A program made the position numbers and the translations under genes. Shown here piece after piece: positions 27,296-62,053 of a DNA stretch of 64,000 nucleotides; the first letter of the stretch is position 1; each line of letters begins with the position of its first letter. Origin of the DNA: Balamuthia mandrillaris (lineage: Eukaryota); assembly GCA_031835245.2 (NCBI GenBank), contig JAVKOQ020000012.1, positions 186,001 to 250,000 of the forward strand. The letters are read 5' to 3'. The notes under the pieces are model-generated. The model was given only the letters and a program-made list of their open reading frames with translations, was not told where the DNA came from and did not search any database.

Positions 27296-27705
27296 ACCAC
27301 ACACTATCTTTTGCTCGTTCCCCCCAAAAAGAGATCAAAGCAGATGACCGGTTATTTGCAGCAGCCCTACTGGCAGCGCAGCGCATATTTGACTTTGACA
27401 ACCTGATACAAGAGTTTGGCAAGATGCAAGCAACCCAAGGCATGCTCCCCACTCCCATCACCCTCACCCCTCTCTTTAGGGCTTGCCAAAAGGAGGAAGA
27501 CCTCAGAGCCGTTCTCCAAGTTCTGTACAGAGCTCACGAGGCTCCTTCTGAACATCCATTGACGTACCTGGATAGGGAAGCTTGGAATCAGTTGAGATTT
27601 GCCTTTGAACGAGCTGGTAGGCTGAGGCTTTTCCAACAACACACCGACAGGTATGCGCATCGCACTAATCTTGCCCAGTTCTTGAAGGCCATGAAGAGGG
27701 CCTGA
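24812..27705 (+). CDS. Pentatricopeptide-repeat (PPR) protein, probably mitochondrial; multi-exon
   Basis: Arg-rich, acid-free N-terminus; ~35-aa helical repeats (YIPIIALYAAHDKKDNVLSLLDHM; PDVKILTVLMSIYIRNEQYEEA; MQATQGMLPTPITLTPLFRAC). Confidence 0.72.
26812..26940. repeat. (CTCTCC)n intronic microsatellite
   Basis: Read directly. Confidence 0.9.
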
Positions 27706-27775
27706 TGTAGTTTGCTTGACTAAAGAAGACAGAGGACGCAGTTTTGTTCTTCTTTTTCTTTCTTTTCGTTCTCTT

Positions 27776-28798
27776 TTACATATTCTCGCTCCACTCTTTG
27801 TTCAACAACGGAGCAATGGCCATCACCACCTCTTTCTTGCCACATAATATCGACCTCGCATCCAAGTCAAACAGCTCTCCTTCTCCTCCTTTCTCCAACA
27901 AGGAAGGCGTGACCACCACTCCACCGGCCTCCTCCACTATCACACTCGCTGCACACATGTCCCAGCTGTGCACACCCCATTCGTAGTAGGCGTTGCTGCG
28001 CCCGCAGGCAACGTCGCATATGCCGGAGGCTGCGGAGCCGCAGCAACGGATGCCGCGGGCGTGGTGCTTCAACAGGGATTGGAGGTTGTCGAGCATGAAG
28101 GAGATGCCGCGCTCGCTGCGTGAGTAGCCGATGTTGGTGGCTATGCAGGCCCTTGATAGCTGGGTCTCTTGGCTGACATGAATGGGCTTGTTGTTCAAAA
28201 ACGCTCCTTTTGTTTTGTTGGCGAAGATGAGAAGATGAGAGAGGAGAGGAAGAGCACAACAAACCTTGACCTCGAATGGCAGTGAACTTCTCGTTGAGTA
28301 TGGGGTTGTACACTATTCCTAGCTCTGCTCTTCTGCCTATGGCAAGCCCGATGCAAATAGCAACAAACGGATAACTTTGACCAAGCAACAAAAAAAAAAA
28401 AACATAGTTGAGTTTCGTTCGCTTCGAACGGATCCGCTCCACAAAATCAAAGAGCAAATTGTTCACCTGTGAACAAAGTTGGTGGTGCCGTCAATCGGAT
28501 CAATGACCCACGTCGGTTGTGAGGTTAGTTTAGGCTCCTCCTTGGCCGCTCCTTCTTCCTGTGAGGCCGCGGTGCTCTCCTCTCCCAAGAACAGGTGGTC
28601 CGGAAAGGCAGCGCTCAGCTTGGCCACGATCAACCGCTCCACCGCCACGTCGACCTCAGTGACCAGGTCCACGGCCCCGCCCTTCTCTTGCACCGACTCG
28701 TGCGCGCCAAACTTGCCGCGCACAATGGCGGCAGCCTCCTCCGCCGCCTCCATCGCCACCTCGAAGCACCGCTGCAGTAACCCTTGTTTGTCTCCCAT
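27776..28798 (-). CDS. IMPA: Inositol monophosphatase; 3 exons
   Basis: DLVTEVD, FLGEES, TWVIDPIDGTTNFVH, RCCGSAA, WGVHSWDMCAASVIVEEAGG. Confidence 0.95.
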
Positions 28799-28871
28799 TT
28801 CACCTCTTCGTTTCTTTCAAGAAAAAGAAAAGAAAAATAAGCCCTGTTGAAAGAAGACACTTTATAGAAAA

Positions 28872-31800
28872 TCATAGAGAGAGGGCTTTGAAGGCTTTGA
28901 GCAGCTTGGTCTTTTGTCCGATCTTGACGCCCAGGTCCTTCCAATCCTCGCTGGTGAGGTCCGGTAGCAAGTCCAACGTGATCTCCTGCTCCTCGAAGGC
29001 GGGCAGCAGGCTGGACAAGCCATTATCGTCGAGGAAACGCGCCAATGTGATTGGCGTTGTTGTTGCTGATGTTGTTGTTGTTGACTCAACGCCACCTTGT
29101 GGCTCTTTTTCTGAATCCTTTGCTTCTTCTTTTTGCTCTTTCTCTATTGTTGCTTGAATCCCTGCCTTTTGCTCTTGTTCTTCTTTCGTTGTCTGTTCTG
29201 GTTCGTTTGCTTCTGTTTCTTCGTTCTCGTTTTCTGATGCTGTTTGTATACTTTCGTGCTCTCCTTTTCCTTGTTTTTCTTCTTCGTTCTCTTTGTCTGT
29301 TTGAGCCTCCTCTTTGTGTACTTCTTCTTGTTTGGCAGGAGTGTCCGCGATAGGTCTATCTGTCTTCTTGTAGAAGAGCAAGTAGGCTGTTTTGCGGAGC
29401 ATCACGTCGTGGAAGGGGTCACCAACGGCCGTCACATATTCATCGTCAAAGAGATACCATTCGTTGTGATCAGCGTTATAGACTCGAGCGTAGTTATGAC
29501 CTGTTTCCAGGTTGCCAGAATGATGCTATCATTCGTTTGTTTGTTTGTTTGTTTGTTTGTTTGTTTGTTTGTTTGTTTGTTTGTTTGTTTGTTTGTTTGT
29601 TTGTTTGTTTGTTTGTTTGTTTGTTTGTTTGTTTGTTTGTTTGTTTGTTTGTTTGTTTGTTTGTTTGTTTTAGTCTAGAAAACAGGAAACAGAAGAGATG
29701 GAGAAAGAGCGAGAACAGTGAGAAGCACGTACACATATGGCATAAAGGGAGTACAAGGGGAAAGGAGGAGAAGAAGATGAGTAACGCGGAAACTCCAGTT
29801 CTGAAGGAATGATGACGGAGTGGTTCAGCTTGCGATAGTATTTGGCTCCTCCTTTTTGATACTGCTGGTAACGCCGAAGGTGAATGATGACTATCTCAGG
29901 CAGTTGTTTAATCTCTTCCTGCTTGATTGCTTCGATCTCTTCTGTCCTCTTGTCAACCGCGCACGCGTCGCAACGCCTTAAAATCAAAGCAGAGTGTTAA
30001 CAGAGAGAAATACAAATTGCAGAAGAATAAGAAGATAAGAAGGTAGATACCGTTTGACTTGTTCGGGTTGGAAGTAACCCGAAACCAAATCCTGTAAAGT
30101 AACCACAACGTTACTGCTATTTGCATCATCCTCACCTCTACTCAGCAAAAGGGGCAGACACAAGTGTTTGACCTCCAGAGTCTCAGTGCCGTCAATAGTG
30201 CTTTGGCACTCTGCCGAAGTGCACTTAACGTGCTGTTTGCAGGTGATCATCACAGCTTCCTCCAATGATGGCGCCGCTCGAAGCAGATGTTGAAGAAAGA
30301 ACGTGAGGAACTCGTGGGAGTCGTGCATGCGGCATCCTCCAAACTCGGGTTGTAAGGCGCATACCAAGCGATACAATTCAGACGGTCGGAACGATTTGTC
30401 TTCTCCTGAAAGCAAACGACCCACCAAGCGACGATAGCAATTCAACAAATCTTCAGTGGTTGTAGGTTTCATCACAGAAAAGTGGTACGAAGAATGGGGT
30501 TGTGGAAGAGGCGCATCGGTGTTGTTTTGCTGATGATGATCGGCAGGATGGAGAATTCGTTTGGTTAGAAGGTCGCTGCGGGATAAACACTGGAGAACAG
30601 CGTTCAGCCAACACGTGTTGCCCAAGTTTACCAGACCACATGCTCTTGTTGTTGCAGCTGGTGTGATGCCATAAGAGCGTGTGTTCTCATCCGTTATAAA
30701 CACAAATGAGTCAATGTCTTCTTCCATAGAAGGAGATGGAAGCTGAAGCAAATCCAGCATGTAGTTTTCGTGGAAGAAGCTTTCTTGCTGTTTGTCCGTG
30801 GACGATGAAGGAGTCGTGGCGATCGATTCAGGATTGGGCACCGCTCTATAGTTTGCCTCTTCTTCCTCTAACAACTTTTCCACTTCTTCCGGTACTTTCT
30901 CCACATATACTTCATCCGTTTCGATGACGACGTCGTGTTGTGCTTGCTGCTGCGCATTCTGGATTGTTCTTCTTCTTCTTCGTTTCTCTTCATCTCTGCT
31001 CATTCTGACTGTCAGCTCTCCATATAACTCGTGCAAAAGACACAAGTATGGCACATAATGCTCCACTTTGATGCTCTTTGGAAATATTTGCTCCACTTCT
31101 TCAATCATTAGATTACCTGCCGTAAGCCTCATAGCTTTTAAATCCCTTTCCATCACCAACATCAACGGGTGAGCGGTGTTGCTGTTGATAATCTTGTTCG
31201 CGTTCTCGGCCTGGAGCAGCATTTCTGTGACGGCCTGAATGGTGTCGTACCATCTCTGCGCTTCTTTACGAGTCAGTGGTTTAATATCGTCGTCATTCTT
31301 ATCCATCTTCTTTTTGGTGTCACGATTGTGGAGACCACGAGAGCTTCTTCCTAGCAACAACTTGAACATTCGGTCAAGTTCTTCGAGGGCAGGTGAAGGT
31401 AGAGGAACTTTGAAGGTGGTCGGAATGTTGATGAAACGATAGTCTTTGCTCTCCTCTTTTTTCACCACCAATTGGCACAGGTCTTTCAAGAATCGAAGAT
31501 GGAATCTTTGGAACGAGTTGAAGCCTATTGGAAGTGTTTGTGGAGCTAGTTGCCCTTTCACAAACCTGAGCAAAGACATTGTTTGTAGTTTCAACGTATT
31601 CTTGTCTTCTTGCTGTTGGTGTTGCAACTCGTCGAGAACGTGTCGAACGATTTCCTCAAAAAAGTCTATCAATCCAAACAGTTCTTCTTGTCCTACTTCG
31701 CGAAGACTCACTTCCAATTGTTTCTTCTTGTCCACTGGAAGCGGGTCCGCAAAAGGTCCTCCGTTGGGTAGTTTTAGACAAAGTTGCAGCAAATGGTATG

Positions 31801-34800
31801 ACCTCAACTTTTTGAGCACAGACGCGTCCGTCAATGCTCCGTCGCGAATGCCGGCATTAGGCTGCTGGTGAGAGGAAGGATGGAGAGACGAATCTTCGTT
31901 TTCTTCATTGTTGCAGTCGTCCACTCTGAGAACAAATGTCTGCCGCAATGCAGTGATCGCCCGTCCGAGTTCTATTTTACCACTCGTACGTTCCACCACC
32001 TTTTCAAATGTTTAAAGTTGATAAGTGAGAATGGGGATGGAAAAAACAAAAAGGTGGAAGGAGAAAGAAAAGAAAAAAAAATAAGAAGGGGCAATAAGAA
32101 AGAAATACCATTCGTTCAATACGAGCATTGTCAAAGCTCAAATCGCTGCGTTGACGTCGCTCATCCACAAAGCAGGCTTGCATACATACACATTCCTCAA
32201 ACTCCCGCAAGTCCCATCCTGTAAACAGCAGTTGCTGTTGCTCTCGCTCCAACTCTCCCGATGCCAACAAACTCAGATCTACTTCACGCTCTGCGTCACC
32301 CTCATCAAACAACAATCCTTGGCGGTCATCCATTCCATCACGCTTCATCAGAATCTCGTCTTGTGGAGCCACGATCGTTTGCAGGAAACGAATGATCGCA
32401 TCCGTGCCATCAGAGTCCGGCAGAGTTAACAGACATTCTATGAGAGGAGACTCGTCATCGACATCCACAATCAGCTGCTCGAATGCTCTTTGGTCCTGTT
32501 GATTGCGACACATGCCTTGTAGCTGTCCGTGAATGGCTTTGGCTTTATTCCAACTCCTCTTGAATCGTTCAAAAGCCGCTACCACTATCCTCACAGTCTC
32601 CTTCTCTTCTTCTCTCAGGCATTGAGAAATGGCTTGCGGTACGAACAACGTCTTCGCATCCTTCTCGCTCAGTCGTGAGACAAACACAGAGTTCATCATT
32701 CGGTAAAATAGCACCAAGTCCGGAACGTACTGCAAGGCTGGCAGTTTGGTAGCTGCATGTTGCACGTAGGCTCGCAACAAAGGTCGTGAAGTTTCGGCAG
32801 CTGTTGTAGTCAGCTCTTGATGGATCCTCTCGGCGTAGACTCGGTAAGAAAGGTCCAGCGGGGAGAAGAAGCGAGCCGCCTCTACAGCTCTCAGATCCAA
32901 TAGCTCAGCCATGTTATGGTGATGTGCTTTGGCGGCTTGCAGATGCACTTCCCGCAGCTCCACGTATCTTTGACTGACGTAATCAAACACCTGAGACTGA
33001 ATGACGTCTTCGTATGCTTTCACTTGGTCAGCGTTATCGAATACAGCGATGAAGCTTGGCGGAGGTTGGTGTTGTGGAGTAGCGAAGGAGAGTTGCCAAA
33101 TTCTGAGAAGAGCTTCTGTAAAGAAGTGAGGTCCGTCCATTCGTTGCTGCATCATTTCAGGATCGGTGCACAACATGTTTACAAAGGTCGCCCCTCGATT
33201 GAACACATACGCCTTGACCTGTTCCTCTTCGCTCCGGGCTCTTCCTCCCCGTTGAAGGGCTTCATCTTTCCAATTGTTGAGAAAGTGGTAGTTGGTAGTG
33301 AACACGCGGAAAGCATGTTGCGGATCCAGCAGCAAAGTCACGCACAACGGCAGCCACGCTAAGGCATTAATGCACAGTCGGTATCGTCGAATGTTATTCA
33401 TCACCGGTGGGTTGCTCATCTGCGTCAGTTCAGCGATCTGCTCTTGAGTCTTGTAGCCACAATCCCAGTTTCGTCTTTGATAGTCGGAGCCAGGGCCAAA
33501 GGTGTTGTGGAGGGTGGCAGGCAAGAAGATACGGTTATACACGTGATTGCTTTCTCTGGGGCAACCTAACGCTATCGCCAAGCAGTTCACAATCATGTTG
33601 GCTCTTGTCAAATCAACAGCAGCATCTCCGTTATCATTTTCTTGTTGCTGTCGTTGTTCTTCTCGTTTTCTTGCATCAGCGGAGAACAGGAATTGTAAAG
33701 GATCCAGCTCGCGAGAAGAAGCTGCTGCTGGTGCATTGGTAAACAGCAGGATTGCTTGTCTTTCCTGCGGGTTGATGTCCAATAGGCGAACTAGGTGTGA
33801 CCCTTCGATGTTGAGCTGTTCAGCCAAGAAGGGACATGCTTTGCCCTGGTTGAAGAAGTCATAATATACCACCAACAACACAAACATTCGTAATCGGTGA
33901 CGCCGCAATGTCGTCAATGCCACATCTTCTTCGTTTTCTAACTGTTGTCGGAGGTATTCGTTGAACGCTTGCAACTCGCGTTGTCTTATCAGACCATTGA
34001 AGCGTTGATACTCTCGTCCGGTTTCACTGTTTTGCTCCAGCATGAAGGAAAAGCGAGTGCCATCCCCAATGCTCGCTGCATCCTCCGCTACCGCCCACCG
34101 TTCTGCCAAGCCCAATTGTTGCAGCGCCTCTCTGCACTTAAGCAGTCTAACCAGACCCTGGTCGCGAGGAAAAGCCACAAAGAAGAAGCGAGCGGCTTCC
34201 AAAGGAGCTCCCAATTTCGGTCCTTCCATTTCGCACAACAGCAAACGAACCAGGCCAAGAGTGTTGGCTGGTTGTTCTGGCCATTCCTCTACGATGCCCA
34301 GAGCAGAGGCTTTGCTCTCATCACAAAGACTCTGGGCAGCTTTACGAAGGAGGATGCATGCCAGCGCTGCTCTTTGGATGATCAACTGGACCTTAAGGCC
34401 GTTATGCCCTTCTTGGGAGGAAGCGACCTCTATCTCGTTACACAGCTGCTCGAAACGATGGGCCACTGTAGGAAGAATGTCATTCTCGGTATCTTCTTCT
34501 TGCTGTTTCAACAGGATGAAGAACAGCATGTCTTCCAGCGGATATGCGGTTGAAGCAATCGCTTCCAGTTCTTTTTCTTGGTCGTTCTCATCTTTCTTCG
34601 TCAAGTGATTACTATTGTAGTTATAACGAAGGAGATGAGAGCGGTTCGAATATGAGGTTGCGATCACTTCTCCAGCGAGTTGCAGCATGGGTCGTTGCAG
34701 CTCTTCTTTTTGGTCTCTCAGAAATAAATACAGCAATCGTGTTCGCCAGTCAAGCGATAACTCTTGCCACCATGTCGCCACAAACTCTCTTAGTAGTTCT

Positions 34801-37800
34801 GAGTCTTCTTCGTTCTCAGCGCACAATCGCAAGTACAGCTCCAGGTCTTGCATTCTTTCCTCCTTCAGCACATCGTCCTCTGCTGTTGCTTTGCTGAGGA
34901 ATGAACGAATCACGTCTTGAACGAAGTACTTCCCACCGTGTGAATTTTTCTCTATCTCCTTCTCTCGACATAGCGCTATCATCCAACGAACGGCCAGATG
35001 CAATCCTCTCTCTTTCTCCTTTTCGTCTTCTTTCTCTTTCGCCTTCTCGTTCTGGTCTTTTTTGACAATGGCTGAAACCAGTTGTGTGACAGAATCGGTC
35101 CGAAGACGTGCCAGCAAGTCTTCTATCGACAAGTTCATATTCAGTTGAAAGAGGAAGATGCACAGCATGCTGTCGAACTGCATCCGTGCTAACGCATTCT
35201 TCACCTCTTCTTCCTCAATAAGAAGCTGCAGTAGGGCTTGTCTCTCTGGCATCCTTTGTCTCAGCTCCCTGAAGCATTTACACCAGTTGAGCAGCAGTTC
35301 TTGCTCTTCTTCTTTCTCTCGGCTTCGGTCAATGATGATGTCCTTCGTCAAACGAGTCCACAACTGGTCGATGGCAAGCCGACAAGCAAAGCCATGCAAA
35401 GCACGAGGGGTGGGCACTGCAGGCAGATCCTTCGTCACCGTGGCGACATCTGGCAGTGGTTCTCGCAGATGTTGCAAAGGGCCAAGACAGAGGGCAAAAA
35501 AGGCCAAGCAAGGTTGATCAAACTGTCGACTGATGAACAGGCCCAATACGGCCTCCTTTGACGTCCCGCGAATGGCTGACATTGAATCAAGCACCAAGCC
35601 GTACAGATCCATCCATGGCGACGTTATGTTGTTGCCAAGCTTTAATGTTCTTTGAACAAAGTTTTGCTTGAAGAGGAGGTAGAGAGATGGTTGGGAATGG
35701 ATGAAGCGTAACACAGAGAGAAAGTTGTGGTCTGTCAACTCCGCCAGTTTGTGGTGCACGTCCACAGCGGTCCGTTGTTGGGAGGCCAAACCAGTGATGG
35801 CTTGCTGCATTAGCGTCATGATCCTCTCCTCCAAGTCTTCATACATCGGGAAGGAAGCCGGATTGGCCCTCCTCTCTCCCGTCGCGAAGCGGACCCGCAC
35901 TGATTCGCGGCGACGCTCCAAAAGGTTGTCCAGAGGAGGGGGTTCCAAGCAGCCGATCATCATCCTAATCAAGCGTCGCATCATGGTAACGCTCATTTGT
36001 CCCTCTTCGCTGCTCTCTTGTTCCACGGTCGAAGCCAAAACTACGGTCTCCAAAGAGTGGAAGGACCACAAGGGTTGAAGAATCTGGATGAGCTGAGCCT
36101 CCAGAAGGAAACGCAGTGAGGAACAAACTGTCTGCACCAAGCTGCTGAACAGTTGACCCATGGCTACCGCTTCGCAGGATTCTCTCACCACAGCGTGCAG
36201 CAATGGTCCTGACCAAGTGTGAACAAATCGTTCCAAAATGGCTTCGTAGAGGTATGAATGAGAGCGGAACAGCTCCCTCATAAAGTCAAAGCGTTCCTGT
36301 TTGCTACTTTGAGGGCTGTAGAAGGCTTTGCTGGCTTTGAGTTTGTTGAGAAGAATGGTACGAGAGGGACGGAAAGCAAAGCAGTGTTTGCGCAGCAGGT
36401 CGAAGAACATGTGGGAGAAGGCCGCTTTGGTAGAAGCAAAGGATGCTGCCTTGCCCACGTCCAATCCAAAAGCCTTGGCGATCCACATTCGTCCATCTAC
36501 TTGGGCTGAATGGTGCTGCTGCGATCCCGGTGCTTTCTGTGGTTCCACATCAAAGATGGAAGCAGATAAAGAAGCGGAGGAAGAGTACAAAGACATGCAA
36601 TCTCCAAGACCAGCGGCAGTAGTGGTTGTCTCCAATCCTAAATGGTCCACGTACAAAAAGTCCCATCCATTCAAGTACACTGCGGGATAGCAGGCATGTT
36701 TGCTCACGCTCATCTCTGGCGGGAAGTGGAGGATGATCACTGCTAGACGATCGTTCAAAAGGTGTCTGTCCAAGAACGTGCGAAGCATGTTGACCTGGTT
36801 GGTGGAGCACTCGTACATGTCTGCCACGCACACCAGCAAGGCCTTCGCTGCGCTCTCCTCCACAAACTCTTTTATCACATTCTCGCATTCCTTGCTTGAA
36901 GACAGCGTATGCAGACACATCAGCTGAAACTCTCGTTTAGTTTCCTTCTTCGTCTGTTGTTGTTCACCTTCGGCTTCTTTCGGAAGACAAAGTCTAAAGG
37001 CCTCTTTGATGAAAAATTGAAGAAGAACCTGATCGTGATGCACTCGCAGCAGCTCTCCGCTGGTTCTGGTGTAGACGCACCACTTGTTAGTAGTATGGTC
37101 TTGCACGTATTCCTTCATGCGATAAGCTCTGTTGAGAAACTGCAGGAAGCGCATCACACTGAGGTGCTCTTGATTGGCAAAGTACTCTGTGACGTAGTTG
37201 GCAGGCAACATTCTGCACGAAAACAGAATTTCCGGTCGAGCCAGTTGAAGCAGCCGAAAGTTTAGTCTGCGCAGCGTTGCTCTTATGCCATTGTTGGAGA
37301 AAAGTACATCGCCGGACTGTCTTTCAGTGGTGCTCATGCCCCTTCTACCATCAATCTCTTCCTCTTCATCCGCAAAGTCGGGATATTCCTCATCTACTTC
37401 GTTTTCATTTTTCTTCTCTTGGTCGCCATCCTTTACAAGCTTGAAATCCTCTTCCATAGCCAGCAACTCTGTTGCTTCTTCTCTGTCAGCTTCCTCGCCT
37501 TTTGGAAGAGGCAATGGAGCAACGGATGACGCAGAAGCAGGTACTGAGAAAGGAGGAGGAAAGTCGAGCGTGGTGGTGCATTGCTGCGAACTGTGTTGAA
37601 CCGCATTTAGCAACAGGGAAGCTGTTGTCTCTTGTGGTACCAATCCATACAGCAGCCTTCGTCCGCCAGCTCCGTCGTGCACCCTCTCCACAAAGTCCTC
37701 CAATCCATCTTCAATGATGTCCAACATGCTCACACTCTTCGAACCTCCGTCTTTGGTACTCACCGCCACTTCCTTCCATTTTCGCAAAGCAACAGCGTGC

Positions 37801-40800
37801 TTCAAACCATCCGATACAGAGAGAATGTACTTCTCGAAGCGATTAAGGAAGGGTAACGGCGTGTCTTTGAGGGTGGACATGGGCACATGCACTATCACCC
37901 AGAAGTTTGGATGGACCATGCAAGGCCGGGAGTAGGAGCCTATCGCCACGTTGGCGTAGTATTGGTACTCCGTCTTCTTGGCTTCCTGTTGTCCTTCTTC
38001 TGTTTCCTCCTCGTTGAAGTATAGTCCCCTTCCTCTGCTCTCCTTCTGCTTTTGTTTAGGTGAGGTAGCAGTATCAGAAGAGTGGGCTTGACTCTCGCTC
38101 CTCAAAACGGTGAAGTGGCGGTTGAAGACATCGTAAAAGCAGCTGTAAATGGAGGCTGCATTGACCAACACCACCGTCCTTCCCTCCGACATGGCCGTCT
38201 TCACCTTCAAAATCGCGTTCATCCGCGCAAACTCGTTGTTATCCTCCGCAAAGTCTCCCATGTGACAAAACTCCACTTCGTCCGCTTTGCATATCCCCAT
38301 CCACAACAACAGCGACAACGAAGCTCCACTGTCCGTTGGATCCAACACCATAGTGTAGCGGAATGCCGCTGTATTGGGGTTTTCTCCCTTTTCCAGTCGT
38401 TCCCCAAGGCTCTGCTCTAACAGAGGAATACATGACTGCCATTCTATGTCTGAAGGAAACGCCCAAGCTAGGTCGCCATGGGTTTGCAAGGCTTTGTTGA
38501 CCTCGTGGAACCACATGCGAATCAGCCGACGATGAGACTCCCCGTCGATGCCGTTGAAGTTGCGTTGAAGTCCCATTAACAAGGCTTCTCTGGTCAGTTG
38601 GAAGTCTTCCCCTTGGCTTGTGCAATGCTTTCGCAGGAAACGCAGCAGGTACACAAAGTCTCGCAGGTGGAACAGGTTTGGGCAGGTCTTCTCAGCAAAC
38701 TCATTGCTCCTCTCGAACGCCTTGCACAGTGCATCCAGAATGGAGGCATTCAACGGAGATAACCCATCTTCCTGTGAACCTCCTTTTCTCCTTACCCTCC
38801 CGTTTCTTCCTCCATGAGAGCCACACACACATCCTGCGGCGAGGGCTCTCAGGTCGTTGTGCGAAGGAGCTGATTGGAAGAGCTGCAATGCTCGATTGGT
38901 CTTTGCCGCGTCCAGAGGTTTGTTGGCCAGAATGACGGTGGGAACCTTGGCGTGGTCCATGTGATAGTGGATGACCTTCATGGAACTGCTGTTCTCCGGC
39001 AGGTTGCCCTCGTCCAGAAGGACGGTGCTACGCACGGAACATTGCTCGGGATCTTGGTCTCCTTCGAAGGTCCTTTGTCTGCTGATAGCCGACTGGTAGA
39101 TGGCCTCTATCTCCGTGTCAGTTGAATGACGAGAGCACTGGTAACGGAACGGGTAGAGGTGATGAAGCTTTCTGTAGAGCCCACGATCGGATTGCTTGCC
39201 TTTCATGTTGTCCACCGCGATAGTGAAGCTCAACGTCTTGGAGCAACCAGGAGGCCCCACAATGATCAGCGGGATCTTGGCATCGATGCAGATGACCGTG
39301 CACCACAAGTTTTCCAGCAGAGCATCCGTTCTGGCAATGCCCGCTGGGATGTTGGTCTTCTCGTACAAATGCTTCATGCAGTCCATGATGGTTTGGCGGT
39401 AGTTCCACCATTCTGCTGGACAGCCCGATTGCTTCAAAAGGGTTCCCATTTGCTCCTCAAAGTCTTGTCTGCTGAACGCCGCAGCGGATGATGATGATCC
39501 TCCTTCTTTCTCTTTCTCCTTCAACAAAGCCTCTGCTGGTGTGAGCAAACGAAAGTAGTAGCTCATGGTGATAGACATGATCAACGCCAACCAGTGCAAG
39601 TTCTCGGGTGAAAGAGTCTCTTTGCGCAGCACGAATGGACGGTAGGTGAAGTACTTGTAGAGCTGAACCACTCGCATGATGTCTCGAATGCTGACATGAA
39701 CGCGATGAATGTTGGCTCTTCGCACAAACTCCTGCCCAAACAAGATAAACCTTTGCAGGGCAAGACGCACTTCCTCGCTGCCAATGTCATAGCGCACATC
39801 CATCAAGACACGAACGAAGTTGTGTTCCTGTGGTGCGTCCATCGCTCGGAAATCCAACAAAAGCTCTTCCATTGAACGAGGAGGAGGTCGCACCGCGAAT
39901 ACCTCATCGCTCTCCTCGCTCGTTGCTAGCCCAGTGAAGTCCACATGTGTTGTTGCTTCTTCTTGCAAGATTGGAACGAAAGGATTCATCGCAGCCACCC
40001 AAAAGATGTTGCTTGGCAAAACCTCTCCATCCAAGGAATGGTCCACGAAGATCTCTTTGAGGACTCCCATAATGTTGGTAGCGTTGAACTCATCCACAAA
40101 CACCACCACTGTCGCTCCTCCGCCGCCTTCCATCATACGAGTGCAGTCCTCTAGTTGGTTGGCGGTTTGGAAGATGGGTTGCAGCTCCGCATGGAGCCTT
40201 TCTTGGGTGTACTTCTGGTGCATGGTAATGCGATGGAAGAGATTGACAAAGCGGGCGTTGACTAACTCTTCTGCAAGTTGTTTGACTTGGTCCACATTCT
40301 TCACTGTGGTTCGCCATTCTCCTTCCACGCCTCCGCCCACAGCAGGAACCGTGGCTCCATCGCTCGAACCTGCTCCTGCTCCGCTGGAAGGAGAAGAGGA
40401 AGAAGGCGATGATGACGATGGTGGATGAGGTTGTGAGCGTTCCACCCGAGCCAGTAGATGTGTCCGCTTGATGAGAGAATAATTGGCCAAAAGGGCTCGA
40501 ATGCGAGCTTCCAACCTACCGGCCATCAACTCCATGCTGCTAGTCGCCGTTGCCACAGCCACACCTTCGGCTTCATCTTTCTCTTGTTCTTCTGCCAAGG
40601 CACGGGCATCATCCTCAGCTTGAGCCAACTCACATAGAGCATCCAATGCTGCCAACAGCTGATGGCTTCTTGGATGGGAGCCACATTCCTTCAACGCCGC
40701 CAATCTATCATCTCTGTCGACTTTGGGTGCTGACTGGCGAGCAATTTCTTCCATAAGGAAGGTTCTCATCTCGAAGAGCAAATCAGGCACCAACTGGGAG

Positions 40801-43800
40801 TCAGAGTTGACGATAACGGAATAGAGGTTCAGCATTTCCGTCTTGCCCACGCCGGTGTCGCCAGACAGCACAACGTTCATCCGGATGCGTCGCTTCTCGT
40901 TTAAAATGAGCAGCTTCACCGCAAAGTCTGGCGTCAAGACATATCCCTGTTGCTCTACGATCCTCCACATCTTGTCCGTTCGCGTCAAGCCTAATCCATG
41001 AGCGATCTTCACTCTCAATTGCTCCGGAAAGGCGAAAGCATCCGCTAAGCTGAGTACACTTGTTTTGGGCACCGATATTGGCGTATCCCTACCTCCTTCC
41101 AATGGCCGCAAATCCAACACGTCGATATCTGCCCAGTGACCATCGAAAGAGCGAGAGGTAAGAACGGGAGGGTTGACAGAGATATTCTCTCGCAGCTGTC
41201 TCTCACACAGCCTTCCGCACTCTGCCAAGAACAACTCCAACAAACAATCGATAGGAGTGCTCTCCACGTCAACCTGTTGTTTAACCAAGCTCTGTAGGCT
41301 TTGCACCCGTTCTTTCATCCAACGGCATCTGTCCGCCAAAAGCTTCAGAAAGCTTCTTTGGTGAAGAGGTAAGGCCGGCAAGTCTATTCCATACTTGGTA
41401 CGCAGAAAATCAAATATGGCGTTCAGATCTTCCTCTCTTACTGCCGTTCCAGCCTCTGCTGCGGCATAGGCTTGCAGAACGTTATCGTACATTGTCAAAA
41501 CCTTCACGTTTCTTCCAAACTTTCCGTTGTAATATGACGCGAAGAAGCTATGTGCTAAGCGAACGTCTGCATCTATGTCAAGCGTTGGGCTTCCTTCTCG
41601 TTGTGGTTGTTGTGGCATAGAGAAGAAAGTCTCGGCAGCATGATTCACTGCAGGCAACTGAGAAAGCACTTTCTGCAAAGAAGAAGCGTGAACAAAGTGC
41701 TTGTCGTGATCAGGAGCAGCTGCCAATTCCACAAAGATATGCCATTGATCACCGGCGTGGATCTTTTCCATGTCTCCAGTGGACTCGTCCCATAACATTC
41801 CCCAAAAGATGAACAACTCCAAAAAGCGACCAACCACTGCCAAAGGCGCGTATGCTGACATGTTTAAGTGCACTCCAATCGTCCGTACCGAAGAAGATGT
41901 CGATGAAGAAGAAGCGAGGTTGCGATACATAGCGATGAACTTGGAAGGAACAAAGCTTTCCGTGATGCTCACTGTCATCCAATGATCTAGACTTTCTTCT
42001 CCCTGGTGTTGCAACTCTTCTCGTCGTTTACGAATGAGGTGAGACTTGCCTGAACATGGAGGCCACATGTGACATTCCAAAGATCGCAACTTCATCCGTT
42101 GCCTCACCATCCTAGGAAGCAACAGCCTATGATTCTGCCTCAGATCCACTTCCGAGATGACTCGGCTTGCATCGTAGCTCTCCTTCTCCAAGAAGGAGAA
42201 CACCTCCACGCCAATCTTCTGCAAGAATATCAGACGAACCAACCCTCCTCCTCTTCCCTCGCTCTCCTTTGGCTCCGCGAATGGATCGTCGTCGTTGTGG
42301 TGATCCACAGCACATTGATGAGATGCCCACTTAATGAGCGCCTCTCTTCCTCTGATTGACAAAGCATCCACCCCCACCAAAAAGAACTCCGCCGAAGGAA
42401 AGGCTTGAACACAGCGCAGAAAGCGATGAAGCTCGTTCAAGTCCAAATTATCTTTGCAGTATAGCACTTGAGCGGGATGGATTGGGGTTGTAGTCAATGT
42501 GATGAACAGACGAAACATCTCCCATCCGTCCATTTCGTATGCCGTTACTACCACTGGCGGCTTTCCATTTACTTCCTCTTCATCATCACTTTCGCCTACT
42601 CTAATTTCTTCTTCTAATTGGCTGAGAGCGCGTCCTGCAATATCTAATCGTTCTCCCGCTGTCACTGATGCCTTGCTATCTTCCAAAGTGCTAAGCACTC
42701 CCCTTACCTCCTCCGTGATTGTGGTCCGCACTGCCTCTCGCCATCTCTTCTCTGCATCTTCGTCTTCCCACCGCAGTACATCAGGGAAACAGGCCCAGAA
42801 AAACGGCGATAGCAAATCTACTGCTTTTGTTGCTTTGCTGTTTTTCTCGTTAGCGCCCTGTACATGTTCCAAAGACTTGAGACTAGCCATCATGCGGGAC
42901 ATCTGCCTCTGATCCAACCATAACAAACGAGGGTAGTTATTGTAGGCACGTTCCAGCTGTCTCGTCCAAAGTTCTAACTTCTCTTCAAGCTCTTGGGTCA
43001 TTCTTTGGTAAGCATTGGCGGACAAGTCCTGATCTCCTTGGTTCAACCTGTCGTCAGCGCCTTGAAAGTCAGGATGCCCCTTTGCCTCCAGCTGCAACCT
43101 CAGCTTGTGGGCTTGGTCGGCCAAGCGGAAGATCTCTACAAATTCGTTGAGCTGTCTCAGTCGCTCCTCGTCCACGATGGAGCTCTGATTGACAAACACC
43201 GCGATTCCTCGGATGAGGTCCTGCAGATGGGAAAACGGAATCTTGTGTTCCACTTTCTTCTGCTGTATGCCTCTTCCTTGTTGCGATTGTGTGCCTCCTT
43301 CAGTGAAGCACAAGCAAAAGTCATCTCCACTCGGATGCAATGCCAAACGACTTTGATAGTATCCCGTTGCGAACAGTCGCGCAATGTATGCAAGGGCCGT
43401 GTCTAGAGTCAATCCGCTGGTGCGAGCGAACCACACCCTCACTTGCGGTAGATGCTCCAACAACTTTCTCACCTCGTCTAACTGGCTGTCCACTGCCGAG
43501 CCCAACCGCTCCTTCACTTCTTTGCAAAATTGGGTCAGGTTCTCCTTTCCTCTCTCTCGACGACTCGCCGCCGTCCTCAGAAGGTCCACCAATGGGGAAA
43601 ACAGCCGATGAGCCGCTAGCAAGCTGTTCAGCACTCCCAAACCAAACTCATAACCTTGAAGATCACCGCTCAAAAAGTTGATGCTCTGCTCAAAGTCTTG
43701 TTGCTGACTCAGGAAGGCCACTAACTCCTCTACGTCCGTCGCTGCCTTGAAGTAATCCAGCTGTTTTGGATCCAACTCTGCCAGGGCTGCGCGTATCGGC

Positions 43801-46800
43801 CGAAGCAAGCCAGGAACTTGGGAGAGTAATACTTGATCTTTGTGTTCCTGCAGCAGTGGTTCCGCTGTCCTTTGGAGTAGTTGGATGTGAGCAAGGCACA
43901 GCTGATGTTTTTGCATGAAGTCAAAGAGAAAAGGAAGATGGTCGGCGTAGTCAAGCAGATTGAGGGCATCGGAGAGCCGGTTGACGAGCTGGGCTGAATC
44001 TTCAGTCGTGTAGGACGCCGAAAGGTTGAAGAAAGCAGCGCTGGAAACATAAGTTTGCTTTAAATGAGAGACGAGAAAATAGAAGAGAGCTGAGAAAGTT
44101 AAACGCACGCGATGTTGAGTTCATCAGAGAGATCTCTTTTTTGCTTGCTGAGCAAGTAGACAGGTTCTATTGCTCCTAAATTCTGTTCATCCAACTTGGT
44201 AAGTTTTTCCAGAAATTTGGCTGTTTCGGCTATCATCTCTGATGCGTGGCCCGCTTCTAATGGCTTTTATAAAACGGTAAATGGATGTGCTTCAAGAGGA
44301 AACAGAGAGATAAGAACGAAAAGCTTGAAATAATACCTTTCCGTCAAGTTTCTTCATGATGTGCATCTCGCTGATCCGAAAAATAGCGCTCCGTTTGGTC
44401 AAGAACAATGCAAGAGTGGCTACGTCTTTCTCTTCTAACCCAAACTCTTCTAATTGTTCCACTGCATCCTGAACCGCCGTCTCCCAATCAGCCAACGTCG
44501 CTTTCTCAAAATTCGGTTCCTGCACTTCCTCCACATCTTTCACTCGCTTGGAACGTAGCCAACGAGCCAGATGAGAACATTCGTCCAATCGTGTCCGCAG
44601 AGAGGACCAGTCTTCTTTGAACTGGCGCACTTCCTCTGCGATTTCTTCGGACAGAAGCTCCCATTTGACATAAAGGTTGAGACTGGGTAGGATAGCTTGC
44701 AACTGCTTCGATGTAATTAGCTTTAGTGTCAGGTGTTCATCAATGTATCGTTGAATCGGTGCCTTCAGCTGTTAATTTGATTTGAAAAGGAACCAAAGAA
44801 AACATCACAGAAAAAGAAGAACACGAAGAAAGGTCTTAGGGTTATATCAACAGAAATAATAGACAGATGTGATGGATAAGCTACCTCAAAAAACGCTTCT
44901 GAATATAGAACAAGAAACTTCACGTTAGCCTCAGGCTGATCCTCCTCAATCTGCAAACAAACTGCAGTGGAGGGAGGGAGAGCATAATGACAGTCAGGTA
45001 ACAACTGTTTTATCTGATGACACACCGAAATCCAGCACAGCAGCGAGACACACGTCTTGGCGGCGGTTGGTTTCCCCACTTCAGACATGAAGCTTCGAAT
45101 CAATTCGTTGATGACTTGTGGAGCATTGGCGAACCGAGACTTGAGGGTGGTAAGCTTCTTTTCTACTGCGACATCAGCTACAGCTTTGGCCAGCAGCTCG
45201 TACAGCCCAGGAAGAGAGGTAGAATCTCCGAGGTGGTGTTCTCTTATGTAGTTACTTTCCAGACGAGAAAGTTGATCAACGCAATCTTTCAAATCGATGG
45301 ATGGGAAGCTCTGATATGAATGTTTTTGGTTACGTAGGGTGCCTGATTAGTTATAATCATCGACGACGTACAAGAGCAACGCGGCGGGGAAGTACCTTGA
45401 AAGCTTTTCGTATCAATTGTAGGCATTGCTCGTCATCTGGAGAGAATTGACAGGCATAGGTGCGGCACGAGCCACTCATCAGTAGCGTAAACGGTGAGAG
45501 CAGAGTATCCTTATTGTAGGAATGGTATCGAGACCTTTGACGAGCTTGTCCCTGTGCATCAATGATGGTGATGAAAGGTTCAAGCGCCATTTTTAGGTCC
45601 TTGTTTGTGTCATCATTGGAGATGATAAAAAACTTTTCCAACAAGTTGGCTCTGTCTTTGTCTAAGCTGCTTCCGCGAATGCAACTTATCAACAAGGATC
45701 TGAAGAACTTCTGTCTGCTCGCTATTGCTGGCAACCTGGCTCACATTTGTTTAAGAACGAATAAGTGCACAAGAAGAGCTACACTCAAACCAAAATTATA
45801 CCTGCAATAATTGGCGGCATTTAGATTGCGTAAGTGGCTACAAGCCACCGCCAAGCTACCTATCGCCGCATCTAGGTCTTTATTTGAAGTGTTGGCTTCA
45901 AACTGGCTAAACATGGCTTTCAGGGCAGCCTCTCCAACGTCCGGGGCCACGCGCTCCATAAAATACTCCAAGAATCCTTGTAGAAAGGCAGTACGCCACT
46001 TATAGTAGCATTGCAAGGTGGCCACCATGGCCGCCCACCTGCAAGCCTCTGGGGCTCGGTCGCCCGTTCCCCAGTGCGCCAGTTTGGAGACAGCCCGACC
46101 TGTTATCATAACATTGTTAATTTTATGTCAAGTAACAACAAAAAACCAGAGACAACCATGTATAGCAGCAGAAAGCTTGCGTAAATCTTCGTCCGATAAG
46201 TCCACCGATTGATGTAGAAACTGCCGAATGGCTACCTGCACTTCATCTGCCCAATCCTATATTGCAGATGTAAAAAACAACAGAAAATAAGAGATCGAAT
46301 AAAGAAGAACAACATTCCTGGACGATGTAAGCGTACTCACCAGTAGTTTGATAGTGGAAATCAAAACACTCAACAGCAACTGCAAGCCATCCCGTAAACG
46401 AGTGACGCCCATCAACGTGGCCTTGTAGTTACCTCGCTCAACTAGCAATCTCGTCAGACGAACCTCCCTCGTAGCGCCATATTTGTTTATCAACAAAGGC
46501 CAGAAGGAGCACCACTGATCCGTGCAGTTCCTCCGTAGCTGATACTCCTGAGAGGAGGCTGAGCGAACTGCCATCACGGCCAAGTATATGACTATCATGT
46601 CCACCTCGAATGCGAGCAGCTGGTCTACATCGACGTTATAACCTTGTTCAAAATGAACAGGAGCCAACACTCGTAAAGCGTCACTGGCGCAGAGAGAATG
46701 ATGTATCTCTGCGAAGCAACGTTGGTTCGTTCGGTACAGCGTCGAGAGTAGTTTGACGCAGTCATTGTCGCTCTCTTGGAAAAGAGTGTGGAGCTTGCTC

Positions 46801-46921
46801 ATACATGCCTGCTCAAACAGTTGCTTTGCAGTCGTGACAACATAGTGGTAGTGTTTGTGTCTAGTGTGCTTGTTTCAGTTAAAGTGGAAGAAAGTGAATG
46901 CTCTGCTCATGTCAAGTGATG

Positions 46922-46962
<41 letters not shown>

Positions 46963-47609
46963 CGAGAGAGGGAAGAGAGTGGTAACAAACCTTTTAAACA
47001 CGCAGTAACACCATAATACAAGAAGCAGGTCGTTGGTGCTGGCGACCCACTCTAAAAGTACTTGCGCTAGTTCCTCCGTGCTACGTTGCGAGGGAGAAGA
47101 AACGTCCTCAAACCTTTTGAACGCAACATGAAGCTTCTGAAAGGTTTCAGCATGAGTGTTGGTAGTAGCAGTAGAGGCCGTCGTCAAAAAGGTTCGCAGC
47201 GGTGCTACGTCGTAGTCTACGTTTGTTCCAAAGAGGTAGGTCGCCGCCAAGCCTTTTGCTCTGCTCAAAAAGCCCTCTTTGTTGCTTTCTTTGTGTGCGA
47301 TCTCTTCGTGAGTAACCTCTGAGGAGGAGAAGGCACCGTCACGCTGTGGTTCCTCGGTTGACAGAGCTGAAGCGGGTGGTGCTTCCACGTCCACAACAAC
47401 CGACTGGGGGTCGATCGTGTCTCTCTCTACAAAAGCGTTGTGTGCGGTGGAAAGTTGCAGTACAAGCAAGGAGAAAAGAAGGAAGACGAGCAAAGGTTAC
47501 CTTTCTCAGCAGGGTCCCATGGATCTTTCTTTTGTTGCTTTTTCTCCTTCTTCTTGTCTTTCTTGTTTTCTTTCTTGCCCTTCTTGTCGTGCTTCCTACG
47601 TCGCTCCAT
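28872..47609 (-). CDS. Giant RNF213/mysterin-like multi-AAA+ ATPase fused to a C-terminal USP deubiquitinase domain and SAM domain (roughly 5,500-6,000 aa, estimated)
   Basis: RNF213-like motifs: GYVLTPDFAVKLLIL, LSGDTGVGKT, VVFVDEFN, IVGPPGCSKT, VLLDEGNL, LDAAKTNR, HLRDFVYL, LQRNFNG, YDVFNRHF, CMVHPNF, PLPFLNRFEK. USP: GLVNLGNTCWLNAVLQCL, MHDSHEFL, LPEIVIIHLRRY, HSGNLETGHNYA, WYLFDDEYV, AYLLFY. Terminal SAM. In-frame GT-AG intron 32108-32000; 5' exons traced to ATG 47609 (less certain). Confidence 0.85.
29535..29670. repeat. (GTTT)n microsatellite inside the USP-domain intron
   Basis: About 34 perfect units. Confidence 0.95.
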
Positions 47610-47903
47610 AGCAGCTGCGAAGGTCCAATGAAAGACTTCGCAGTCTTCTCTTTGTTATGCCCCAGGGAGCAATCCACCCTTTTGTTTTTCGCTTTTACTC
47701 AATACAAAAAATTCAAAAATGGGTGGGGCATGCTACACGATAGGAACTAATTCAATTCATTAAAGTCCAGCCAGGGCTCTTCCTTACCGTGGACAGAATT
47801 TGTACGCCACCGATGCAAATAAAAAGCCACCGAAGCGTTACCCATTCACCCTGAAGTCGGAATCTGTAATGTGTTGGCCATGTGGTTTCAACTTGGCTTA
47901 AAA

Positions 47904-48192
47904 TCAGCGCAGTGCACTCTGAAAGAAAGGGTAATGAAGGGCCTGCCAAAGTTGCGCTGCCTTAGAATGTTCCTCAAATCGAACATGTGGAAGAAGGCGA
48001 GGGCGTACCTCGGTAGCAGAAGGCCTTTTATTTGGGTTATACTGGAGTAGGTCGTGCAGCAGTTGAAGCGCTTCAAGAGAGGCTTGTGGAAGTGCGTCTG
48101 CCAATTTTTCCATTACAGGCCTGTGATCTACCCCTCCCTTGCAACAAGAAAAACTTAATTATTGAATTGCAGGGAGATGATAGGCTGTGCAG

Positions 48193-48233
<41 letters not shown>

Positions 48234-49318
48234 TAACAGGAAGAATGGCCGCAAACCGGAGACCATCAGGCCAGACGTCCTCCGTAGGAGGCCCTAAAAA
48301 GCGCGCTATCTGTCTCAGCTGATCAATTTCGTTCTCTCCTGCAAACAGTGGCGCCAAGCCATACTTCGAAGTGGGCAGTGAATTAGTGGCATTCTTGGGC
48401 ACACGAATAAAAAACAAACCATTTCGGCCATTATAGTTCCAATCGCCTAACATCAGCAACAGAATTAGTCGCAAGTCCCAATAAATGATGCTTGCATTAC
48501 TTACCCACATATCGATGGCGGGGCCATAGACTCCATTCTTGAGGAGCACTTCTGGTGCTCGGTACCATCGGCTTGAAATGTATTCTGTGTAAGGCGGCCC
48601 GGTTACAACGCTTCGTGCTAATCCGCTGAGCAGCACCACATAGAGGGAAAAACAAAGAATAAGAAAACCGAATAAATTGCTAACAACAAGGACAATCGCA
48701 CAAGTCGCCAATTTTCAAAACCTCTCCGGTCACACTGCAGAGGAGGAAAAGGAATGTAAGTCCATAGCAGGCGAAACATGTCTGATGGCCATCTACGTAC
48801 AGCAGATTCTCTGGCTTCAGGTCCCTATGAAAGACGTCATGCTGGTGTAAGTGTGCCAATCCTGAAAGTGCTTGGTACCTGCGAATGGCGAGCATTTAGT
48901 GTTCACATCTGAGAGTGGGATTCGGAAGCGCCTACATCATGCTCCGAATAGTGGACTCGGGAAAGGGGCTCTGTGCTTCCGTTCTTCTAGTGATGACCTC
49001 GTGAAGGTTTTCTTGCATATACTTTCATGTAACGTGTTAGAAAAGAAAGTGAACCGAAACAAAAAATAGAGTTAACACCTCAAAAACCAGATAGAGTCGC
49101 TGCTCCTCCCTTATGACCTCCTTCAGCTTCACGATGTTCTTGTGGCGAAGGTACTTTAGTGCTTTGACCTCAGCCAACGCCACGCAGTCCCTCCACGTTT
49201 CGAACCTGCCTCTCATCTTCTTTATCGCCACCAGCTCGCCCGTTCTCAAGTGCCTGTACCGTCGCACCGTTCCATACGTGCCTTGCCCTAACTGTGCTTC
49301 CTTTTCATACTTATCCAT
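47904..49318 (-). CDS. MAK/ICK-like (RCK, CMGC) Ser/Thr kinase, catalytic domain only; multi-exon
   Basis: LGQGTYGTV, VAIKKM, HRDLKPENLL, DFG rebuilt across an intron, PPYTEYISSRWYRAPE, ALHYPFF. Confidence 0.9.
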
Positions 49319-49677
49319 GCTTCCCTCTTAGTTCTTCTTCTTCTTCTTCTTCTTCTTCTTCTTCTTCTTCTTCTTCTCCTCTTCCTTCTTCTTCCCTTTC
49401 AAAAAGTCTTACTATCCTGCTACCTTTTTTCGTAGTGCTGGTTGTTCTGCTACGTTTTTCCTATCCCCGATATTTGTGGTGCGTATGTGCGTGTGTCTCT
49501 GAGACAAGAAATGTAAACAGCAGGAGAATAAGAGAGAACAACCGGTGTCTATTCTACAATACAAAGTTGGTGAGTTCCTTGGTTCCTCGTCTTCTTCGTC
49601 TGCGTTGAGGTTTTCTTTTTGTTTTTTTACACAGCAACTCTTGAGCTTTTTTTTTTTCTTACCTTTGTTTGTCTGGT

Positions 49678-50508: not shown

Positions 50509-50543
<35 letters not shown>

Positions 50544-51283: not shown

Positions 51284-51331
<48 letters not shown>

Positions 51332-51340
51332 TAGAGAGAC

Positions 51341-51375
<35 letters not shown>

Positions 51376-53285: not shown

Positions 53286-53775
53286 CTTTTTAGTTGTTCT
53301 TGTTTCTTTTGGAGGGGCTTGTTGTTGACTTTATTTTACGCGCGTGCGCACGCAAAACAAACAAAGGAAAGGGAAGGCTGACGAGGAGAAAAAAAAAAGA
53401 AAGAACAAGGGGCAGATAGTGGTGGTGTAACTCTAGCCCTGATTCTCGTTTTGTCCACATAATAATAAAAATAAAAATTATTTATTGGATTCACAGATGT
53501 CCGCAAAAAAGGAGAAATCCCGATTTTCTCCCAGTTTTCTGACTTGCTTGACCGCAATGTGTACTCCATTGGTCCTCCTTAATCCAAAGGTACTACGAAA
53601 CTTCGACCCCAAAAAAAAAAAAGAAAAGAAAAAAGAAAAAAAAAAGAAAAGAAATAGTGGCGTTGGTGTGGTGTTTCAAAGATTTCAAGCACCAACTGCG
53701 GAGTGGTTGGCAGTAGAAGCAGTGGAGGAGGGAGCTTGAAAGAGAGAGAGAGAGAAACACTTTTTTAAAAAAAAA

Positions 53776-62001: not shown

Positions 62002-62053
<52 letters not shown>

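What the first reader, a model, noticed from the sequence alone, without database searches (positions are those of the whole stretch)
28872..47609. RNF213-like giant AAA+ ATPase carrying a deubiquitinase (USP) and SAM domain: a possible 'reverse-polarity' mysterin
Seen: the 4034-aa ORF carries the RNF213 AAA motif series in order, and it is not a separate gene from the downstream USP ORF. A 109-nt phase-0 intron (GT at 32108, AG at 32001-32000) joins them. The join rebuilds FDNARIERM|VVERTSGKIEL, which resembles the RNF213 C-terminal motif FDLEKIQRQIVSRFLQGKPRL. The protein then continues into a USP domain and a terminal SAM. Known: animal RNF213 is an ATP-regulated E3 ligase that ubiquitylates bacterial LPS and pathogen surfaces. 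Inference: the same sensor/motor chassis is coupled here to the opposite chemistry (ubiquitin removal) plus an oligomerisation module, a candidate cell-autonomous immunity or ubiquitin-editing machine in a protist. I do not recall this architecture being described.
Basis: partly seen in the sequence, partly recalled or inferred. Interest (0 to 1): 0.92.

Follow-up and report, generated by a model that had tools for sequence, protein, structure and literature searches.

The report
RNF213-like giant ATPase with deubiquitinase tail
An amoeba gene, spliced into one transcript, encodes a 5,864-residue relative of the human immune ubiquitin ligase RNF213 that has lost both of RNF213's zinc fingers and instead ends in a ubiquitin-removing protease domain with intact catalytic residues, so it likely edits ubiquitin rather than simply adding it.

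Summary
Confirmed. One 13-exon gene (47609-28872, minus strand, 5,864 aa) of Balamuthia mandrillaris. One spliced 6,138-nt contig runs from the giant exon across the 109-nt intron through the USP into the SAM. The AAA core matches RNF213 with all four active Walker residues. The predicted fold before the intron matches human RNF213's E3 module (Z 20.7). The region after it is most likely RNF213's C-terminal domain (weak support). So the whole chassis is kept and the USP-SAM is added behind it, not swapped in. No RING or RZ finger was found. Where RZ inserts, a short loop carries a near-invariant Asp-Cys-Gly (Cys in 113 of 118 relatives). This marks an RZ-less subfamily (Amoebozoa, Naegleria, sponges) that forms its own clade. 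A USP or USP remnant follows the C-terminal domain in 13 of 330 fetched proteins; 8 keep the full triad. Best reading: an ATP-switched scaffold carrying a deubiquitinase. Boldest: a ligase-plus-deubiquitinase editor that uses the new cysteine. No activity was tested, and an immune role is inferred. Ten literature searches showed no description. The scan noted other RNF213 variants before, but not this one.

The parts
28872..47609 (-). Whole gene, 13 exons, 5,864 aa
   Evidence: All 12 introns GT-AG, no internal stop; identical to NCBI protein P0004 except a 20-aa gap in that model; 9 of 12 introns seen spliced in RNA-derived data, a 10th as a loose end
44109..47609 (-). Exons 1-9, N-terminal arm (aa 1-938); no Pfam family detected
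   Evidence: aa 1-400 matched no relative
32109..44040 (-). Giant exon 10 (11,932 nt; aa 939-4916): linker, AAA ring, hinge, E3 module
   Evidence: profile match of aa ~915-1998 to RZ-type relatives, probability 100
42042..42062 (-). AAA2-type P-loop (PPCSGKS, aa 1599-1605)
   Evidence: GK[ST] motif 340-490 residues before Walker A3 in all 21 of 27 checked proteins where Walker A3 was located, of both subfamilies; AAA2 assignment inferred from position
37803..40949 (-). AAA3-AAA5 core with intact Walker A/B sites of AAA3 and AAA4 (K2005, E2256, K2540, E2616)
   Evidence: phmmer vs PDB: only RNF213 chains, best E 2.5e-31
32109..34340 (-). RNF213-type E3 core/shell (aa 4173-4916), without RZ finger
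   Evidence: Model pLDDT 88; Foldseek top 8 all RNF213; Z 20.7, rmsd 5.6, 590 aligned to human 4239-4959
33456..33494 (-). PGS...DCG loop at the RZ insertion point (P4455 to G4467; C4466)
   Evidence: D 117 of 118, C 113 of 118, G 113 of 119; profile alignments place it where RZ inserts
32000..32108 (-). 109-nt phase-0 intron joining the giant exon to the CTD/USP exon
30881..31999 (-). Probable RNF213-type C-terminal domain (aa 4917-5289)
   Evidence: Family block found in 67 of 211 proteins; collinear weak profile match to the RNF213 C-terminus; Foldseek top 3 RNF213, E 0.03-0.28, TMq 0.23
29370..30640 (-). USP domain over exons 11-13 (aa 5370-5699); N5374, C5379, H5657, D5674 intact
   Evidence: Pfam UCH, USP4/15/11 best PDB sequence hits, alignment
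28881..29060 (-). SAM domain (aa 5803-5862)
   Evidence: Pfam SAM_1 E 3.5e-8; reached by the X1 contig

Best explanation
This is one spliced gene for an RNF213-type giant ATPase that lacks the RING and RZ fingers and carries a USP domain with an intact catalytic triad plus a SAM domain, and it likely works as an ATP-switched scaffold that brings a deubiquitinase to the structures it binds. Shown: single transcript, motifs, domain order. Predicted: the E3-module fold. Inferred steps: (1) nucleotide binding at AAA3/AAA4 switches the scaffold, as in RNF213; (2) the scaffold is recruited to a target surface, possibly a microbe or microbe-containing vacuole, with the SAM adding self-association; (3) the tethered USP trims or removes ubiquitin there; (4) the E3 scaffold is kept as a structural or binding platform, and the invariant Asp-Cys-Gly is part of a conserved site that is not a ubiquitin acceptor. 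I put the architecture at about 0.95 and this mechanism at about 0.45.
For: Single contig from 35454 to 28927. Four active Walker residues conserved; RNF213's E3 activity depends on ATP binding at these sites (PMC12075652, passages). No RING or RZ by pattern or Pfam. RNF213 loses all ligase activity without RZ or its cysteine (PMC12075652 section 11). The RNF213 CTD residues that dock the E2 (mouse F5093, W5097, D5101, Y5106, E5108) fall in a stretch that is not conserved here or across the family. USP triad intact here and in 7 other fetched proteins whose USP domains are 15-29% identical to this one.
Against: The Cys at the RZ slot is among the most conserved residues of the E3 module (113 of 118), which a purely structural role explains poorly. 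Most RZ-less relatives have no USP (13 of 330 fetched proteins carry one or a remnant), so deubiquitylation is not the family's core function. 5 of the 13 have lost a catalytic residue. The CTD alignment behind the E2-site statement is weak (4 bits for that stretch). Nothing here shows the target or an immune role.
Confidence: 0.45

Rival explanations
1. Writer and eraser in one chain: the RZ-less subfamily is a zinc-free transthiolating E3 whose nucleophile is the Asp-Cys-Gly cysteine at the RZ slot, and the USP tail edits its own product, in the manner of A20 (comparison recalled).
For: PGS aligns directly before the RZ finger (probability 99.9). With RZ cut out, DCGY aligns to the residues just after RZ, where RZ-type proteins have a variable residue in place of the Cys (P 23, R 7, T 5, L 5 of 53). 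No protein with this Cys carries RZ. The E3 scaffold and the probable CTD are kept even in relatives that end right after the CTD and have no other catalytic domain detected. Unchecked earlier scan notes report Rcat-like modules at the same slot.
Against: The loop is predicted well ordered (pLDDT 89-95), while RZ is mobile. E2-docking residues are not conserved. A second cysteine (C4783) is as conserved (130 of 137; 50 of 50 in RZ-type) although RNF213's nucleophile is elsewhere, so invariance alone does not mean catalysis. The counts come from a profile built on this subfamily.
Confidence: 0.27
2. The USP-SAM is an interchangeable accessory: it binds ubiquitin or keeps the scaffold itself deubiquitylated, while the main job of the RZ-less ATPase (coat, tether or remodeller) does not depend on it.
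For: Tails after the CTD range from almost none to over 1,000 aa and include SAM only, Q/P-rich stretches and other folds. USP remnants without the His in three dictyostelid proteins; His lost in P0099 and Cys in P0121. RNF213 coats Toxoplasma vacuoles without RZ activity (PMC11549300, passages).
Against: The full triad is kept in 8 of 13 across deep divergence. All 9 carriers placed in the tree lie in one starred subclade of 20, which fits long retention.
Confidence: 0.25
3. Two adjacent genes or an assembly artefact.
For: Raw RNA coverage is thin: only 1 raw read spans the key junction, and run X1 is only guessed to be RNA. No single piece spans the whole gene.
Against: The X1 contig skips three GT-AG introns with no mismatch. 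The NCBI model is one protein. The junction lies inside a block that is contiguous in 41 relatives. The same order, E3 module-CTD-USP-SAM, occurs in P0009, P0014 and P0086.
Confidence: 0.02

Closest known systems
Mammalian RNF213 / mysterin (PDB 6TAX, 7OIK, 8S24, 9JWG)
   Same: AAA core with active sites at AAA3 and AAA4, upstream linker region, E3 core/shell fold, probable CTD, same order and similar size.
   Different: No RING, RZ or CBM20 detected; a short PGS...DCG loop at the RZ slot; E2-docking residues not conserved; about 575 extra residues with USP and SAM; separate clade in the AAA tree.
RZ-bearing RNF213-like proteins of protists and animals (e.g. Salpingoeca, Thecamonas, Diplonema entries)
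   Same: Same chassis; E3-module profiles align at probability 99.9.
   Different: They carry RZ (PF20173); none of the 120 listed has a precomputed UCH domain.
USP-family deubiquitinases (USP4, USP15, USP11, USP2, USP21)
   Same: Cys box and His box, Asn/Cys/His/Asp intact; best PDB sequence hits.
   Different: Fused behind a giant AAA scaffold; orthology to any named USP not tested.
ZNFX1
   Same: A nucleotide-driven motor joined to ubiquitin enzymes, reported to polymerise (bioRxiv 10.1101/2025.10.14.682297, passages).
   Different: SF1 helicase with Miz and RZ ligase domains; no homology to this protein was tested or claimed.
A20/TNFAIP3 (recalled, no call)
   Same: Deubiquitinase and ligase activity in one chain, if the rival reading holds.
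   Different: OTU protease and A20 zinc fingers; no ATPase; analogy only.

Membership tests
RNF213-like AAA family | Dynein-like AAA core with catalytic AAA3 and AAA4 | tested here: met
   E 2.5e-31 to RNF213, only RNF213 chains hit; four Walker residues align. All six AAA units were not modelled.
RNF213-like AAA family | E3 core/shell scaffold | tested here: met
   Z 20.7, rmsd 5.6, 590 of 744 aligned to 9jwg_A; next row Z 5.8
RNF213-like AAA family | C-terminal domain (CTD) fold | tested here: inconclusive
   RNF213 ranks 1-3 in Foldseek but E 0.03-0.28, TMq 0.23; weak collinear profile match; full RNF213 chains are over the second aligner's 3,000-residue limit
RNF213 E3 ligases (RZ type) | RZ zinc finger with Cys/His dyad | tested here: not met
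   No RZ pattern, no PF20173; slot holds a 6-8 residue loop in most (61 of 62 pattern matches)
RNF213 E3 ligases (RZ type) | RING finger | tested here: not met
   No RING pattern or Pfam hit
RNF213 E3 ligases (RZ type) | E2-docking residues on the CTD | tested here: inconclusive
   Not conserved in the alignments, but that alignment is weak
RNF213 E3 ligases (RZ type) | CBM20 domain in the N-terminus | tested here: inconclusive
   No Pfam hit in P0004 or in six N-terminal exon frames; no fold was predicted for this part
RNF213 E3 ligases (RZ type) | ATP-stimulated transthiolation and LPS ubiquitylation | not testable with these tools
   Needs biochemistry
USP deubiquitinases | Cys box, His box, Asn/Cys/His/Asp residues | tested here: met
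   N5374, C5379, H5657, D5674
USP deubiquitinases | Cleavage of ubiquitin conjugates | not testable with these tools
   Needs Ub-PA or Ub-AMC assay
SAM domains | Pfam SAM above the curated cut-off | tested here: met
   34.1 bits against a cut-off of 23
SAM domains | Head-to-tail polymerisation | not tested
   No complex prediction was run

The most novel reading that the evidence does not exclude
An ancient, undescribed second branch of the RNF213 family uses a zinc-free Asp-Cys-Gly loop at the RZ slot as a new type of transthiolating E3 active site, and in amoebae this ligase is fused to a working USP and a SAM, giving an ATP-gated ubiquitin writer-eraser coat.
Probability: 0.25. Interest if true: 0.93.

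Novelty: new variant of a known kind. Interest (0 to 1): 0.76.

Why it matters
RNF213 is known as an animal ATP-sensing ubiquitin ligase that marks pathogens. This finding shows a sister branch of the family with the same motor and scaffold, neither zinc finger, and in several protists a deubiquitinase at the tail. It makes two questions directly testable: what the RNF213 chassis does without RZ (which bears on RZ-independent RNF213 coats), and whether a single conserved cysteine defines a new E3 active site. Dictyostelid and Naegleria members give laboratory handles. The public record names this protein a replication factor C subunit, which hides it.

Tried and rejected
No whole genome is held, so paralogue number in this organism is unknown. 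The word-indexed search for shorter proteins matching the E3 region found none of 7,989 candidates, yet the exhaustive search found 143, many short, so the blank was a sensitivity limit. Single-sequence search of the E3 region against PDB sequences found nothing; only profiles and the fold did. The VIA second look at the CTD model gave only generic helical matches (best Z 7.1); 23 of 671 chains were not aligned, and full RNF213 chains are over its length limit. The run search listed no holder on record as RNA; the RNA runs came by species label. The ESM Atlas gave no answer. Alignment A3 scattered the query start and was not used. The uncut profile alignment put DCG against the RZ catalytic Cys-Gly; I do not rely on it because the cut alignment gives a different register at only 74% probability. 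No RING-UBL-TerD neighbour, as an earlier scan note reports for Naegleria, was seen among 52 other reading frames of the window scanned (short exons may be missed). No complex prediction was run: no E2 or ubiquitin sequence was found among session proteins. Monophyly of the USP domains against other USPs was not tested. Literature: (listings); none showed a protist RNF213-like USP fusion or the DCG motif. The library lacks most subscription papers, and no supplements were read; alignments in RNF213/RZ paper supplements may bear on novelty.

Full report
Observation. The minus strand holds a stop-to-stop frame of 4,038 codons at 32004-44120, a 675-codon frame at 29984-32011 and a 217-codon frame ending at 28872. 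A 13-exon model from ATG 47609 to TGA 28872 has only GT-AG introns and reads 5,864 residues without a stop. Four runs were laid on 29700-46900 and on 27400-29528. A 6,138-nt contig of run X1 runs 35454-32107, 31997-30050, 29975-29733 and 29525-28927 with no mismatch, so it joins the giant exon, the USP exons and the SAM. One raw read of RNA run X5 also spans the key junction; X4 and X6 show none, at a depth near one. X1 is only guessed to be RNA, but it skips GT-AG introns. No piece spans the whole gene. The next gene (inositol monophosphatase) is on a separate contig.

Identity. The top homologue, P0004, is an NCBI protein of Balamuthia mandrillaris labelled 'Replication factor C small subunit', with precomputed UCH and SAM domains. 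It equals my model except for 20 missing residues at 5061-5080, where the X1 contig shows no gap.

AAA core. Against all PDB sequences the giant frame hits only RNF213 (9 sequences, best E 2.5e-31). K2005, E2256, K2540 and E2616 align with human K2426, E2488, K2775 and E2845. Mutation of the corresponding Walker A lysines cuts RNF213's ligase activity (PMC12075652, passages). A P-loop about 400 residues upstream is kept in both subfamilies, and the 1,100 residues before Walker A3 match RZ-type relatives at probability 100.

E3 module. A model of aa 4173-4916 built on 66 sequences has pLDDT 88. All 8 Foldseek matches with E below 0.001 are RNF213. The second aligner gives Z 20.7, rmsd 5.6, 590 residues against human 4239-4959; the next row is Z 5.8. 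Two family profiles align the junction consensus with RNF213's FDLEKIQRQIVSRFLQGKPRL. The 370 residues after the intron are a family block: an iterated profile finds it running across the junction in 41 relatives, and a trimmed profile finds it in 67 of 211 proteins. Its model (pLDDT 79) ranks RNF213 first to third in Foldseek, but weakly (E 0.03, 0.11, 0.28; TMq 0.23), and the profile runs collinearly to RNF213's C-terminus at only 4 bits. I read it as the CTD, which docks the E2 in RNF213; the support is moderate. The stretch that carries the docking residues is not conserved.

No fingers, but a conserved cysteine. No RING or RZ pattern or Pfam hit occurs in the protein. A profile of this region aligns with a profile of 53 RZ-bearing relatives at probability 99.9, with the PGS motif directly before the RZ finger. 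With RZ cut out, DCGY aligns with the residues that follow RZ (probability 74), and there RZ-type proteins vary at the cysteine's position. Among 118 proteins with a residue in that column, Asp is kept in 117 and Cys in 113, and none carries RZ. The profile was built on this subfamily, so these counts describe the subfamily, not the whole family. Named carriers include Pelomyxa, dictyostelids, Naegleria, Willaertia, Paratrimastix, a glass sponge and a rotifer. Some sponge members have lost the motif. In AAA trees the RZ-less proteins form one side of a fully supported branch (196 rows; 42 rows chosen from them, quick method). Against a catalytic role: the loop is predicted ordered whereas RZ is mobile (PMC12075652 section 12), and C4783 is as conserved in both subfamilies although RNF213's nucleophile is in RZ (section 11).

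The tail. The USP has N5374, C5379, H5657 and D5674. Precomputed UCH domains occur in 5 of 82 relatives of this protein and in 0 of 120 listed RZ-side proteins. A local profile over 330 fetched proteins finds a USP or remnant after the CTD in 13: nine seeds of the profile (including P0004 itself), P0121 and three dictyostelid proteins (dictyostelid tails against the USP profile, probability 96.8). Eight keep the full triad; two of these are near copies (92%). P0099 lacks the His, P0121 the Cys, and the dictyostelid forms the His. P0086, P0009 and P0014 repeat the order E3 module, CTD, USP, SAM. The nine carriers with an AAA region in the tree all fall in one starred subclade of 20 rows that holds the named Amoebozoa; the tree needs three changes, which may be one gain and two losses. 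Other relatives end soon after the CTD or carry other tails.

Mechanism. Shown: one transcript, an intact motor, the RNF213 scaffold without its fingers, an intact USP and a SAM. Inferred: nucleotide switching, recruitment to a surface, SAM-aided assembly and local removal of ubiquitin (0.45). RNF213 needs ATP hydrolysis but not RZ activity to coat Toxoplasma vacuoles (PMC11549300, passages), so an RZ-less chassis could still form coats. Rivals: a ligase using C4466 plus an editing USP (0.27); an accessory or self-protecting USP (0.25); two genes (0.02). An immune role is an analogy only.

Novelty. Ten searches of the open library listed nothing on this fusion or motif. Seen: passages and sections 11-12 of PMC12075652; section 6 and passages of PMC7311170 (domain ranges); passages of PMC11549300, of bioRxiv 10.1101/2025.10.14.682297 and of PMC5381560, a DUB evolution survey with no mention of RNF213. 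No supplements were read. Earlier scan notes describe other RNF213 variants, such as Rcat-like modules at the RZ slot and a CbbX tail, but none with a deubiquitinase; they are unchecked leads. Verdict: real, a new variant of the RNF213 kind; it works like RNF213 in motor and scaffold, but fails membership of the RZ-type ligases. Interest 0.76.

Noticed in passing
window 31508-31567 (aa 5061-5080): The NCBI model P0004 lacks these 20 residues, as if a 60-nt intron were called; the X1 contig shows no gap there.
   Followed up: yes
window about 32508-32510 (C4783): A second cysteine in the E3 shell is conserved in both RZ-less (130 of 137) and RZ-type (50 of 50) proteins; role unknown.
   Followed up: partly
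P0027, P0037, P0040 C-terminal tails: Dictyostelid relatives carry a degenerate USP-like domain without the catalytic His, followed by SAM-like repeats: probable pseudo-deubiquitinases.
   Followed up: partly
P0008, P0013, P0066, P0069 tails; P0005, P0021, P0028, P0029 tails: By eye, the first group has arrays resembling ubiquitin-like domains and the second a short ankyrin-like end; Pfam gave no such hit for P0008 or P0013.
   Followed up: no
P0069 about aa 4625-4655: A Cys/His-rich stretch resembling an RBR-type finger lies about 220 residues after the DCG motif in one RZ-less relative.
   Followed up: no
P0039, P0046-P0056, P0060-P0065: Many 2,400-2,900 aa relatives end after the AAA ring; four have a precomputed NACHT hit (PF05729). 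They may be split genes or truncated models.
   Followed up: no
window 28778-28872: Only about 95 nt separate this gene's stop from the start of an inositol monophosphatase gene on the same strand; the two are on separate contigs in X1.
   Followed up: partly
window 13459-14196 (+): An otubain-type deubiquitinase gene lies 15 kb away (Pfam Peptidase_C65, E 1e-34); no link shown.
   Followed up: no
window 61671-63188 (+), 53740-54333 (+), 47840-52700 (-): A Frizzled-type membrane receptor, an HRG haem transporter, and upstream of the gene a protein kinase and a RhoGEF-C2 gene.
   Followed up: no
window 29700-46900, runs X4-X6: The RNA runs differ from the window at 27 listed positions while X1 matches it, most likely strain differences.
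   Followed up: no
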